The translations under genes and the position numbers were made by a program. The notes under the pieces are model-generated. The model was not told where the DNA came from. It saw only the letters and a list, made by a program, of their open reading frames with translations, and did not search any database. Of a stretch of 64,000 bases of DNA, positions 21,208 through 29,846 are shown piece after piece. Location: sequence record OR896834.1, one strand, 5' to 3'. Positions within the stretch are counted from its first letter, which is position 1. Each line of letters opens with the position of its first letter. This DNA comes from Escherichia phage Baret.

Positions 21208-22019
21208 ATATTCATAAATTAGAGAACAGCGAGCCGATTACGCTGAACTTGTCTTAATGTAAGATGCGTCAAGCACTAAGATTCGTTGAATAGAGTCGGT
21301 GGGTTAGTTGTAAAACTAGTACACAGGGGGCGGCAATCCCGGTTAGTGGCTAGAACGTGTAAAATGAGGCGTCTGAAACCTCTCCCCTAAACTCTTCTCT
21401 AATTTATAAATAGTGGGGTGTGGAAATCACTTATGTAGTAACACTGCCGTCCTAGTATAATTGGTATTATCAAGCCGTAACTGGTGGAAGATGTAGGTTC
21501 GAATCCTACGGTCGGTAAGAACTGGATAACTGATGCTTTTAACGTAAAAGCTTCCGAGGTTAGTTGCGCACTGCCTAAACCACGCGGTAGTTGGTTCCAG
21601 ACTAACCAACCAGTCTGCTGAATAGTTTTATTACGATTTAACTATGCCCAGGCTAAAGAAGAACTTTAGAAGGTATTCTAGGGTAGTGAAGTTCTTTCTC
21701 CATATCGGAGTAGTTTTTCAAGCTATCCACAAAGTGGGAAATGCTGACATGAGAGATGTCACTAATGGTGCACAATAGCACAGGTAATTCGCGATAACTC
21801 CTGTTGAGTAGCAGCAAAAGGTGGGAAGTCATGACCCCAAGCCTAACCGAGTCCTCAATATACCGCAGGACATAACCACTAAGTCACCCTGACTTAAACT
21901 GGAAAATAATAGACGTTACCGTATTTTGTCTTGAAATACTTAATGAGTGAGACTTATGACTCTCCCGGTATCGTCTGTATTTTTAAGAGTTTTTACGAGA
22001 GTTCTTAAAAATACTTAAA

Positions 22020-23807: not shown

Positions 23808-23885
23808 GGTTCTCAAGCTCATATGGTATGAGCACCCGGCTCATAACCGGAAGGTACGTAGGTTCGAATCCTCGGGGAGCCACCA
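23808..23885 (+). tRNA. tRNA with CAT anticodon (Met/fMet/Ile2 type)
   Basis: 7-bp acceptor (2 GU), D-stem GCTC/GAGC, loop CTCATAA, CCA; T-stem imperfect. Confidence 0.6.
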
Positions 23886-24101: not shown

Positions 24102-24178
24102 GGGGGTGTAATCGAATTGGCATAGGTACTGGACTTAAAATTCAGGTTTTGTGGGTTCGAATCCCACCACCCCTACCA
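24102..24178 (+). tRNA. tRNA-like gene, anticodon loop CTTAAAA (TAA, Leu-type) with short variable loop
   Basis: 7-bp acceptor, AC stem CTGGA/TTCAG, T-arm GTGGG-TTCGAAT-CCCAC, CCA; type-I architecture unusual for Leu. Confidence 0.55.
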
Positions 24179-25007: not shown

Positions 25008-25057
25008 AACATATTTAAAAGTGTTTAAACTAGTATTTGAATACTTTTAAATATGTT
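25008..25057. repeat. 14-bp inverted repeat between promoter and tRNA-Tyr
   Basis: AACATATTTAAAAG ... CTTTTAAATATGTT, arms ~22 nt apart. Confidence 0.6.
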
Positions 25058-25145
25058 GGATTAGTATCGTAGAGGTAGCGAAGCAGACTGTAAATCTGCC
25101 GACTCGGAAGGGTCTCGGGTGGTTCGACTCCATCATCCAACACCA
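25055..25145 (+). tRNA. tRNA-Tyr (anticodon GTA)
   Basis: Acceptor GTTGGAT/ATCCAAC, AC stem GCAGA/TCTGC loop CTGTAAA, long variable arm, CCA. Confidence 0.85.
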
Positions 25146-29126: not shown

Positions 29127-29205
29127 GGGGGATGGGTCTGCTAGGGGTGGACACCTCGCTTGCACCGAGGACATCAGAACGATTCGAATTCGTTATCCTC
29201 CACCA
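29127..29205 (+). tRNA. tRNA-Ala (anticodon TGC)
   Basis: Acceptor GGGGGAT/ATCCTCC, AC stem CCTCG/CGAGG loop CTTGCAC, T-arm AACGA-TTCGAAT-TCGTT, CCA. Confidence 0.7.
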
Positions 29206-29210
29206 AATAC

Positions 29211-29287
29211 GCGTGATTGATGGAATTGGCATACATACCGTCCTTAGAAGTCGGGTTTTGAGGGTTCGAATCCCTTGTCACGCACCA
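29211..29287 (+). tRNA. tRNA-like gene, anticodon loop CTTAGAA (TAG, Leu-type) with short variable loop
   Basis: Acceptor GCGTGAT/GTCACGC, T-arm GAGGG-TTCGAAT-CCCTT, CCA; type-I architecture unusual for Leu. Confidence 0.55.
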
Positions 29288-29412
29288 AATTTGATGGTCA
29301 GAGTAAATTAAACCTACTATCTCGGTTGAGCTGTTTTAATGGGTTCGAATCCCAGCGAGGCGTAACTGCCTGGTGTGATAGAGGCATCATTCCACTAACA
29401 TTGGAAAAACTA

Positions 29413-29648: not shown

Positions 29649-29739
29649 GGAAGAGCAAATCGAATTGGCGACGAAAACCGCTTGGAAAGTGGCTGACTGG
29701 TAAAACGGCTTGAGAGTTCAAATCTCTCCTCTTCCGCCA
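29649..29739 (+). tRNA. tRNA-Ser (anticodon GGA)
   Basis: Acceptor GGAAGAG/CTCTTCC, loop TTGGAAA, long variable arm, T-arm GAGAG-TTCAAAT-CTCTC, CCA. Confidence 0.75.
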
Positions 29740-29751
29740 AACAATTTATAT

Positions 29752-29846
29752 GGTAGGTCAATCCAACGGCTGGCGCTGGACTCCGACTTGAAATCGGTTG
29801 ATCGTAGTGATACGGTGTAAGGGTTCGATCCCCTTACCTACCTCCA
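29752..29846 (+). tRNA. tRNA-Ser (anticodon TGA)
   Basis: Acceptor GGTAGGT/ACCTACC, AC stem CCGA/TCGG loop CTTGAAA, long variable arm, T-arm AAGGG-TTCGATC-CCCTT, CCA. Confidence 0.75.

What the first reader, a model, noticed from the sequence alone, without database searches (positions are those of the whole stretch)
29211..29287. Second tRNA with Leu-type anticodon (UAG) and short variable loop
As for the 24102 gene: good acceptor stem, T-arm and CCA, anticodon loop CTTAGAA (UAG, reading CUA), but a 5-nt variable loop instead of the long arm expected for Leu.
Basis: seen in the sequence. Interest (0 to 1): 0.4.

Follow-up and report, generated by a model that had tools for sequence, protein, structure and literature searches.

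The report
Phage leucine tRNA lacking long arm
This is a real leucine tRNA gene of a T5-like phage that has lost the long side arm that textbooks say every leucine tRNA has but keeps the other features the host charging enzyme reads; such arm-less leucine tRNAs turn out to be common in phages, though the gene itself is already annotated in public records.

Summary
Window 29211-29287 (+) is a 77-nt tRNA with anticodon UAG, A73, an encoded CCA and a 5-nt variable loop (GUUUU). ARAGORN calls it and it scores 47.5 bits on Rfam tRNA. The window is a T5-like phage (Tequintavirus, 99.9% identical to vB_Eco_mar004NP2).

The body is a tRNA-Leu without the variable hairpin. It keeps U8, A14, A15:U48, G18G19, A20a, A73 and a 3-bp D stem with an 11-nt D loop in the E. 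coli tRNA-Leu register. By published work these features, not the arm, are what E. coli LeuRS needs.

CUA still means Leu: 14 of 25 phage CTA codons align to Leu in E. coli NrdA/B/D. The phage uses CTA 14 times more often than the host in those genes.

Most likely it is charged by host LeuRS and supplies CUA (and CUG) decoding. Charging is inferred, not shown. One paper reports that E. coli LeuRS does not charge a Streptomyces type I tRNA-Leu.

- About a third of phage tRNA-Leu genes in an unbiased sample are arm-less, against about 2% of tRNA-Ser.
- T5 itself carries a normal long-arm tRNA-Leu(UAG) in the same slot.

Why the arm is lost is unresolved. I rate this a new member of a known kind, of moderate interest.

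The parts
29211..29287 (+). Type I (short variable loop) tRNA-Leu with anticodon UAG, 77 nt including the encoded CCA
   Evidence: ARAGORN. Rfam RF00005 scores 47.5 bits. Annotated tRNA-Leu(tag) in NC_048205. Identical in about 130 phage records.
29211..29217 (+). Acceptor stem, 5' strand GCGUGAU. It pairs with 29277-29283 (GUCACGC).
   Evidence: ARAGORN bracket output. Acceptor pairs covary across 62 distinct short tRNA-Leu genes.
29218..29237 (+). U8 G9, then a tRNA-Leu-type D arm: a 3-bp stem AUG/CAU and an 11-nt loop GAAUUGGCAUA carrying G13, A14, A15, G18G19 and A20a, then A26
   Evidence: Same length and register as E. coli leuW and leuZ (alignment A1). A14, A15, G18G19 and A20a are published E. 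coli LeuRS determinants. This geometry is rare in other class I tRNAs.
29238..29254 (+). Anticodon arm CCGUC-CUUAGAA-GUCGG. The anticodon UAG is at 29245-29247. There is a U30.U40 mismatch, and position 37 is A.
   Evidence: The U.U mismatch within the UC-[C/U]UUAGAA-GU motif recurs in six distinct short Leu(UAG) genes whose neighbouring pairs covary.
29255..29259 (+). Variable loop GUUUU (5 nt). The last base, U48, can form the Levitt pair with A15.
   Evidence: E. coli leuW has 13 nt here and T5's allele has 13 nt.
29260..29276 (+). T arm GAGGG-UUCGAAU-CCCUU
   Evidence: T-stem pairs covary.
29284..29287 (+). Discriminator A73 followed by the encoded CCA
   Evidence: A73 is the main E. coli LeuRS determinant and is present in 21 of 21 short phage tRNA-Leu genes in the unbiased sample.
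29127..29205 (+). tRNA-Ala(UGC) immediately upstream, separated by a 5-nt spacer. Together they form the Ala-Leu pair that is syntenic with T5.
   Evidence: T5 has the same Ala, 5-nt spacer, Leu arrangement.
24102..24178 (+). Sister type I tRNA-Leu(UAA), 77 nt, with the same D loop, variable loop and T loop
   Evidence: Rfam scores 57.4 bits.

Best explanation
This is a functional phage tRNA-Leu of the type I (short variable loop) architecture. It is transcribed within the phage tRNA cluster, directly behind tRNA-Ala, and already carries its CCA end.

Host LeuRS charges it with leucine. That enzyme reads A73 and the shape of the tRNA elbow and core (U8-A14, A15:U48, G18G19, A20a, the D/T loop contacts). 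It does not read the anticodon or the variable arm.

The tRNA then decodes CUA, and CUG by U34 wobble. CUA is one of the phage's commonest Leu codons and the rarest in the host. The variable hairpin has simply been deleted from a tRNA-Leu body.

Shown here: the gene, its fold, its Leu-type identity set, its conservation, that CUA means Leu, and the codon bias.

Inferred: transcription and processing, charging by LeuRS, the wobble range, and any benefit of losing the arm.
For: Real tRNA:
- ARAGORN and Rfam both call it.
- On 62 distinct 74-nt short tRNA-Leu sequences, 98.1% of cloverleaf cells are paired and 19 of 20 pairs show compensatory changes. The covariation score is 1.007, against 0.235 in shuffles (0 of 500 reach it) and at most 0.19 for slid partners.

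Leu identity independent of the anticodon:
- It shares the 3-bp D stem and 11-nt D loop in the same register as E. coli leuW/leuZ, plus U8, A14, A15, G18G19, A20a, U48 and A73.
- In a viral sample chosen through tRNA-Tyr, short Leu tRNAs have A73 in 21/21, A15:U48 in 17/21 and a 10-11-nt D loop in 19/21.
- Long Leu tRNAs match them (53/55 for A73 and 53/55 for A15:U48). Other class I tRNAs do not (56%, 30% and 18%).
- With the anticodon masked and the variable region removed, 20 of the 60 nearest non-short neighbours are long tRNA-Leu, which make up about 4% of the collection.

Published identity rules:
- E. coli LeuRS needs A73, A15-U48, G18G19, A20a and the D/T tertiary pairs. It does not need the anticodon or the long arm, and truncated tRNA-Leu without the arm remains active (PMC9976931).

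Decoding:
- Phage CTA codons align to Leu in 14 of 25 positions against E. coli NrdA/B/D, compared with 45% for the other Leu codons.
- Against Vibrio phage JSF10 the figure is 42% (n=33), compared with 41-67% for the other five Leu codons.

Demand:
- CTA is 21% and TTA 27% of Leu codons in the window's ORFs.
- In NrdA/B/D the phage uses CTA 28 times and the host twice.

Selection:
- The 77 nt are 100% identical in phages whose surrounding 5 kb is only about 94% identical, for example S131.
- The same architecture occurs in three families of enterobacterial phages: Tequintavirus, Felixounavirus and Seunavirus.
Against: - No charging, expression or modification data exist for this allele.
- PMC6614811 reports that E. 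coli LeuRS could not leucylate the type I tRNA-Leu(CAA) of Streptomyces coelicolor, and says EcLeuRS only charges type II. Having the identity elements may therefore not be enough.
- The anticodon stem has a U30.U40 mismatch, and position 37 is A where E. coli leuW has G.
- One GenBank record labels the identical sequence tRNA-OTHER (H37).
- T5 itself has a long-arm allele in this slot, so the short form is not required by this group of phages.
Confidence: 0.8

Rival explanations
1. The arm loss is adaptive. The tRNA still works as in the best explanation, so this is an addition to it, not an alternative. Deleting the variable hairpin removes the handle or cleavage site used by host nucleases or toxins that recognise class II tRNAs, so the phage's leucine supply survives a defence that destroys host tRNA-Leu.
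For: - Retron-Eco7 and Septu (PtuAB) cut E. coli tRNA-Tyr in its variable loop, and the tRNA-Tyr of T5-family phages escapes because of its distinct variable loop (PMC13096335 and PMC12673091).
- The window's own tRNA-Tyr has an unusually long 18-nt variable region.
- Arm loss is frequent in phage tRNA-Leu: 26 of 81 in the unbiased sample.
- It appears to have happened more than once. The short Leu(UAG) in L120 carries the exact anticodon arm of E. coli leuW.
- Type I and type II alleles coexist at one slot in close relatives, as might be expected under fluctuating selection.
Against: - No bacterial nuclease is known to cut tRNA-Leu in or through its variable arm.
- The bacterial Schlafen studied so far cuts the anticodon arms of class I tRNAs.
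- The Salmonella RecA-dependent nuclease cuts tRNA-Leu(UAG) in the anticodon loop.
- Standalone chromosomal type I tRNA-Leu genes exist in many bacteria, where evasion is not an obvious motive.
- Tolerance by LeuRS combined with deletion bias explains the Leu-specific pattern equally well.
Confidence: 0.18
2. It is a non-functional or poorly functional relic: a tRNA-like sequence that host LeuRS does not charge, carried along in a mosaic tRNA region, or acting only as a decoy or processing signal.
For: - EcLeuRS failed on a natural type I tRNA-Leu from Streptomyces.
- It has a U30.U40 mismatch and A37.
- The same region holds degenerate tRNA-like sequences, at about 29649-29846 and 21445-21518.
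- One record labels it tRNA-OTHER.
Against: - The sequence is perfectly conserved where the flanks have diverged by about 6%.
- Compensatory changes maintain every stem across the family, and between the T5-like, Felixounavirus and Seunavirus copies.
- The LeuRS identity set is retained at the same frequencies as in long tRNA-Leu.
- Both tRNA-Leu genes of this phage are type I, and they match its two most used Leu codons.
Confidence: 0.08
3. It is charged with an amino acid other than leucine, so that CUA is recoded in phage genes. The precedent is yeast mitochondrial tRNA-Thr(UAG).
For: Only the general precedent: class I tRNAs with a UAG anticodon carry Thr or Ala in some fungal mitochondria (PMC7609411).
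Against: - CTA codons align to Leu as often as the other Leu codons do, and no other residue is enriched.
- The anticodon loop has the normal 7 nt.
- Position 3:70 is G-C, not the G.U that specifies Ala.
- There is no long arm for SerRS to bind.
- From the published identity rules (my own inference), anticodon-reading synthetases would reject UAG.
Confidence: 0.02

Closest known systems
Bacterial type II tRNA-Leu, for example E. coli leuW (UAG) and leuZ (UAA)
   Same: Same anticodon family, A73, U8-A14, the A15:U48 Levitt pair, a 3-bp D stem with an 11-nt loop and G18G19 in the same register, A20a, and the T loop. The same synthetase is presumed to charge it.
   Different: It has a 5-nt variable loop where the bacterial tRNAs have a 13-15-nt hairpin. 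Position 37 is A where leuW has G. It has C32 and A38, and a U30.U40 mismatch. blastn finds no similarity to any of 5,426 E. coli genomes.
Phage T5 tRNA-Leu1(UAG), T5t10 in NC_005859
   Same: Same genomic slot (5 nt downstream of tRNA-Ala(UGC)), same anticodon, A73, and the same host range and phage genus.
   Different: T5's gene is 85 nt with a 13-nt variable region (type II), and all its stems differ. It is an alternative allele, not an orthologue by descent. The T5 record notes that changing the anticodon converts it into an amber suppressor. No such test exists for the short allele.
Type I tRNA-Leu(CAA) of Streptomyces coelicolor (PMC6614811)
   Same: A natural bacterial-type tRNA-Leu with a short variable loop, used alongside type II tRNA-Leu and served by a single LeuRS. 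Related actinobacterial type I genes share AAUUGGCAGA, A15:U48 and A73.
   Different: The Streptomyces tRNA is charged by a LeuRS with a specialised leucine-specific domain, and A73 is reported not to be a determinant there. EcLeuRS did not charge it. The phage tRNA has to work with enterobacterial LeuRS, and it belongs to a different sequence subfamily (G9, G13, variable loop RUUUU).
Animal mitochondrial tRNA-Leu
   Same: Short variable loop. A73 and A14 serve as determinants.
   Different: Mitochondrial tRNAs have degenerate D and T loops and a dedicated mitochondrial LeuRS. The phage tRNA has fully canonical G18G19 and a UUCGAAU T loop.
Minimalist E. coli tRNA-Leu constructs lacking the variable arm (Larkin et al. 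2002, as summarised in PMC9976931)
   Same: They show that E. coli LeuRS can aminoacylate a tRNA-Leu body without the arm, provided A73 and the D/T tertiary contacts are intact. The phage tRNA looks like a natural version of such a construct.
   Different: Those are engineered molecules tested in vitro. I could not read the primary paper.

Membership tests
tRNA (Rfam RF00005) | Cloverleaf with conserved T loop, D loop G18G19 and 7-nt anticodon loop; scores above the family's gathering threshold | tested here: met
   47.5 bits against a gathering score of 29. ARAGORN draws a cloverleaf. Covariation supports it.
tRNA-Leu (functional isotype) | Anticodon reads a Leu codon (NAG or YAA) | tested here: met
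   The anticodon UAG is at 29245-29247.
tRNA-Leu (functional isotype) | E. coli-type LeuRS identity set: A73, U8-A14, A15:U48, G18G19 at the Leu register, A20a | tested here: met
   All are present. The list of determinants comes from PMC9976931. The frequencies match long tRNA-Leu and differ from other class I tRNAs.
tRNA-Leu (functional isotype) | The codons it reads specify Leu in the genome that encodes it | tested here: met
   CTA aligns to Leu in 14 of 25 positions against E. coli NrdA/B/D and in 42% (n=33) against JSF10. Both figures match the other Leu codons.
tRNA-Leu (functional isotype) | Aminoacylated with leucine by LeuRS | not testable with these tools
   This needs an in vitro charging assay or charged-tRNA sequencing. 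The literature conflicts: arm-less constructs are active, but EcLeuRS is inactive on the Streptomyces type I tRNA-Leu.
Class II (type II) tRNA | Variable region longer than 10 nt that forms a stem-loop | tested here: not met
   The variable loop is GUUUU, 5 nt. E. coli leuW and T5 Leu(UAG) have 13 nt.
Class II (type II) tRNA | Class II-type D arm: 3-bp stem with positions 13 and 22 unpaired, and a long D loop | tested here: met
   The stem is AUG/CAU, G13 and A22 are unpaired, and the loop has 11 nt. The molecule is therefore a hybrid of a class II D arm and a class I variable loop.
Type I tRNA-Leu (animal mitochondria; Streptomyces coelicolor tRNA-Leu(CAA)) | Leu anticodon combined with a 4-5-nt variable loop | tested here: met
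   The definition comes from PMC6614811.
Type I tRNA-Leu (animal mitochondria; Streptomyces coelicolor tRNA-Leu(CAA)) | Served by a LeuRS shown to accept type I substrates | not tested
   The host LeuRS (E. coli or Salmonella) has not been shown to accept a natural type I tRNA-Leu, and the one published test was negative. No LeuRS gene was noticed in the window; only the seven largest ORFs were run against Pfam.

The most novel reading that the evidence does not exclude
Loss of the variable arm in phage tRNA-Leu is a counter-defence. Arm-less tRNA-Leu would be invisible to bacterial nucleases or toxins that recognise or cut the long arm of class II tRNAs, as PtuAB does with tRNA-Tyr.

That would explain three things:
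- About a third of phage tRNA-Leu genes have lost the arm.
- The loss has happened repeatedly.
- Type I and type II alleles alternate at one locus in T5-like phages.

A corollary is that enterobacterial LeuRS charges natural type I tRNA-Leu, contrary to the published statement that it accepts only type II.
Probability: 0.15. Interest if true: 0.75.

Novelty: new member of a known kind. Interest (0 to 1): 0.42.

Why it matters
[quoted passage not shown] The only bacterial exception I found in the literature is Streptomyces.

Here a coliphage carries two arm-less tRNA-Leu genes, and the same design accounts for roughly a third of phage tRNA-Leu genes sampled. It also turns up in many bacterial genomes.

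This gives a natural test of whether E. coli LeuRS can use type I tRNA-Leu. The test comes with a built-in control, because phage T5 carries a normal long-arm allele in the same slot.

It also bears on annotation. Isotype-specific tRNA models may flag these genes as odd or as pseudogenes.

Finally, it bears on the current question of how phage tRNAs escape tRNA-targeting defences.

Tried and rejected
- **Single-sequence MFE folding.** It did not give the cloverleaf (z = -1.4). I rejected it as uninformative for tRNAs and relied on ARAGORN, Rfam and covariation.
- **blastn of the 77 nt against 5,426 E. coli genomes.** No hit, so a recent capture from the host is rejected.
- **A37 frequencies from the pattern-selected loci.** Rejected, because my search pattern CTTARAA forced A37 and A38. 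The unbiased sample is too small to settle it: short CUN-reading Leu have A37 four times and G37 twice.
- **Bacterial Schlafen as an arm-directed nuclease.** The characterised enzyme cuts the anticodon arms of tRNA-Lys and other class I tRNAs and shows no class II preference. No support.
- **The Salmonella RecA-dependent nuclease.** It cuts tRNA-Leu(UAG) in the anticodon loop, not the arm.
- **Searches for a prior description of arm-less tRNA-Leu in phages.** Nothing found.
- **Larkin et al. 2002.** Not held in the library, so I cite it only through the review.
- **Recoding of CUA.** Considered and rejected.
- **Protein-level tools** (homology, structure). Not used, as they are not relevant to a tRNA gene.

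Full report
**What is there**

Window 29211-29287 (+) reads GCGUGAU-UG-AUG-GAAUUGGCAUA-CAU-A-CCGUC-CUUAGAA-GUCGG-GUUUU-GAGGG-UUCGAAU-CCCUU-GUCACGC-A-CCA. ARAGORN calls it tRNA-Leu(tag) and draws a cloverleaf with a 5-nt variable loop. The Rfam tRNA model gives 47.5 bits against a gathering score of 29.

It is one of 22 ARAGORN tRNAs between 22.0 and 31.9 kb, and it lies 5 nt behind tRNA-Ala(UGC). A second 77-nt tRNA-Leu, with anticodon UAA, at 24102-24178 has the same D loop, variable loop and T loop.

Two further details are a 3-bp D stem with G13 and A22 unpaired, and a U30.U40 mismatch in the anticodon stem.

**Where it comes from**

The surrounding 5 kb is 99.9% identical to T5-like phages: Escherichia phage vB_Eco_mar004NP2 (Tequintavirus) and Salmonella phages EH4 and PMBT29. 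RefSeq annotates this gene as tRNA-Leu(tag).

The 77 nt are identical in about 130 phage records and at least 95% identical in 161. They remain identical in phages whose surrounding DNA is only about 94% identical, for example S131. That pattern fits purifying selection.

Copies 84-88% identical occur in Felixounavirus and in a Seunavirus. Felixounavirus Shy has three short tRNA-Leu genes (TAG, CAA, TAA). There is no similarity to any of 5,426 E. coli genomes.

**It is a tRNA-Leu body without the arm**

Aligned with E. coli leuW and leuZ, the phage tRNAs share U8, a 3-bp D stem, and an 11-nt D loop with A14 A15 U16 U17 G18 G19 N A20a in the same register. They also share U48 and A73. The only structural difference is the missing variable hairpin.

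A 2023 review lists the E. coli LeuRS determinants as A73, the A15-U48 pair, G18G19, A20a and the D/T loop tertiary pairs. It states that neither the anticodon nor the long arm is needed, and that truncated tRNA-Leu lacking the arm stays active (PMC9976931).

To avoid circularity I sampled 120 viral contigs through an unrelated pattern, a long-arm tRNA-Tyr, and parsed every tRNA on them:

| Class (unique sequences) | A73 | A15:U48 | D loop of 10-11 nt |
|---|---|---|---|
| Short tRNA-Leu (n=21) | 21/21 | 17/21 | 19/21 |
| Long tRNA-Leu (n=55) | 53/55 | 53/55 | 42/55 |
| Other class I tRNAs (n=695) | 56% | 30% | 18% |

Only 14% of the other class I tRNAs have a 3-bp D stem.

With the anticodon masked and the variable region removed, 20 of the 60 nearest non-short neighbours of the window tRNA are long tRNA-Leu, including the top hit. 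Long tRNA-Leu makes up about 4% of the collection.

On 62 distinct 74-nt short tRNA-Leu sequences the cloverleaf is 98.1% paired, and 19 of 20 pairs show compensatory changes. The covariation score is 1.007, against 0.235 in shuffles (0 of 500 reach it) and at most 0.19 when partners are slid. One caveat is that these sequences were selected by ARAGORN, which favours pairing.

**CUA means Leu, and the phage needs it**

The window encodes NrdD, NrdA and NrdB. I aligned them to E. coli's own orthologues, which use the standard code. Phage CTA codons fall on Leu in 14 of 25 positions (56%), against 45% for the other Leu codons pooled. No other residue is enriched.

Against Vibrio phage JSF10 the figure is 42% (n=33), compared with 41-67% for the other five Leu codons. 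Recoding is therefore rejected.

In the window's ORFs CTA is 21% and TTA 27% of Leu codons, at 38.9% G+C. In NrdA/B/D the phage uses CTA 28 times and TTA 29 times. E. coli uses each twice. The two phage tRNA-Leu genes thus match the phage's two commonest Leu codons, which are the host's rarest.

**Most likely mechanism**

The tRNA is made from the cluster transcript with its CCA already encoded. Host LeuRS leucylates it through A73 and the elbow and core. It then reads CUA, plus CUG by U34 wobble. The wobble range follows from established wobble rules and is my inference.

No step after the gene sequence has been shown experimentally for this allele. The main counter-evidence is PMC6614811. 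In that study E. coli LeuRS could not charge the type I tRNA-Leu(CAA) of Streptomyces coelicolor, and EcLeuRS is described as charging only type II. I weigh this against three things:
- the conservation and covariation in phages that grow on E. coli and Salmonella;
- the retention of the full E. coli identity set;
- the published activity of arm-less constructs.

I put 0.8 on the functional tRNA-Leu explanation.

**How common it is**

Those loci carry 179 short and 44 long tRNA-Leu genes, while tRNA-Ser is long in 98 of 102 and tRNA-Tyr in 45 of 48.

In the sample chosen through tRNA-Tyr, 26 of 81 tRNA-Leu genes (32%) are short, against 2 of 80 tRNA-Ser.

The same pattern also hit the limit of 120 loci in bacterial genomes. 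Of these, 57 have a single tRNA in 8 kb, for example tRNA-Leu(UAA) in Mycolicibacterium, Nocardia, Corynebacterium and Streptomyces. Others sit in arrays of up to 38 tRNAs.

The loss fits what the synthetases tolerate. SerRS needs the arm (PMC7609411) and LeuRS does not.

Arm loss seems recurrent. The short Leu(UAG) in L120 has the exact anticodon arm of E. coli leuW, whereas the window's gene is only 68% identical to its nearest long relative.

**T5 as a natural control**

In T5 itself the same Ala, 5-nt spacer, Leu slot holds an 85-nt tRNA-Leu(UAG) with a 13-nt variable region and entirely different stems. The T5 record notes that changing its anticodon converts it into an amber suppressor.

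That long allele occurs at 90% identity or more in about 55 phage records. The short allele occurs at 95% or more in 161. Some phages combine a long UAG gene with a short UAA gene (DaisyDussoix). Vibrio phage JSF10 has a short UAG and a long UAA.

**Why the arm is lost**

This is not resolved. A neutral reading, deletion wherever LeuRS tolerates it, fits all the data.

An adaptive reading has a precedent. [quoted passage not shown] The window's tRNA-Tyr has an 18-nt variable region.

However, no nuclease directed at the tRNA-Leu arm is known. The bacterial Schlafen and the Salmonella nuclease I checked both cut anticodon arms.

**Novelty**

The gene is already annotated as tRNA-Leu in many records. 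Type I tRNA-Leu is known from animal mitochondria and from Streptomyces. Eight literature searches found no description of arm-less tRNA-Leu in phages, and the 2023 review says the long arm is universal outside animal mitochondria.

I therefore rate it a new member of a known kind, of moderate interest. Its value lies mainly in the ready-made test of E. coli LeuRS on a natural type I substrate and in the T5 allele pair.

Noticed in passing
window 24102-24178 (+): A second type I tRNA-Leu, anticodon UAA, 77 nt. It has the same D loop (GAAUUGGCAUA), variable loop (GUUUU) and T loop as the UAG gene but different stems. It is 100% identical in about 290 phage records, and T5 lacks it.
   Followed up: partly
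L369 5625-5709 (phage T5, NC_005859 31624-31708): T5 carries an 85-nt long-arm tRNA-Leu(UAG) with unrelated stems in the same Ala-Leu slot. The long and short forms are alternative alleles among close relatives: about 55 records carry the long one and 161 the short one.
   Followed up: yes
window 29238-29254: The U30.U40 mismatch sits inside a conserved UC-[C/U]UUAGAA-GU motif. The motif recurs in six distinct short Leu(UAG) genes (T5-like, Felixounavirus, Seunavirus and two metagenomic contigs) whose neighbouring pairs covary. Position 37 is A where E. coli leuW has G. The function is unknown.
   Followed up: partly
window 29649-29739 and 29756-29846 (+): Two degenerate long-arm tRNA-Ser-like sequences (GGA and UGA anticodons). 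ARAGORN calls them only at an 80% threshold, and the Rfam tRNA-Sec model gives 38.3 bits, below its gathering score of 47. They sit where T5 has tRNA-Ser2(GGA) and tRNA-Ser1(UGA).
   Followed up: partly
window 29338-29354 (+): An orphan GGGTTCGAATCCC, which looks like a T arm with no tRNA around it, lies about 50 nt downstream of the Leu gene. It may be a remnant of a replaced tRNA cassette.
   Followed up: no
window 21445-21518 (+): A tRNA-like sequence scoring 35.5 bits on Rfam tRNA. ARAGORN at a low threshold calls it a 74-nt tRNA-Ser(ACT) with mismatched stems. T5 has the same element inside its annotated stable RNA 'rnaX'.
   Followed up: partly
window 23808-23885 (+): A 78-nt tRNA with anticodon CAU scores 40.3 bits on Rfam but is missed by default ARAGORN. 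It lies next to tRNA-Ser(GCU), where T5 has tRNA-Ile2(CAU).
   Followed up: partly
window 25055-25145 (+): The tRNA-Tyr is 91 nt with an 18-nt variable region. Published work shows that the tRNA-Tyr of T5-family phages resists Retron-Eco7 and Septu cleavage because of its distinct variable loop.
   Followed up: partly
L126-L245 (bacterial genome contigs): Short-arm tRNA-Leu genes, mostly UAA, occur as standalone chromosomal genes in Mycolicibacterium, Nocardia, Corynebacterium, Streptomyces, Planctomycetota, Acidobacteriota and other groups, and also in tRNA arrays of up to 38 genes per 8 kb. This conflicts with the review's statement that the long arm is universal outside animal mitochondria.
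   Followed up: partly
L366 7951-8035 and 17919-17992 (Vibrio phage JSF10): A Demerecviridae phage of Vibrio carries a long tRNA-Leu(TAA) of 85 nt together with a short tRNA-Leu(TAG) of 74 nt. Both architectures therefore coexist within one genome.
   Followed up: partly
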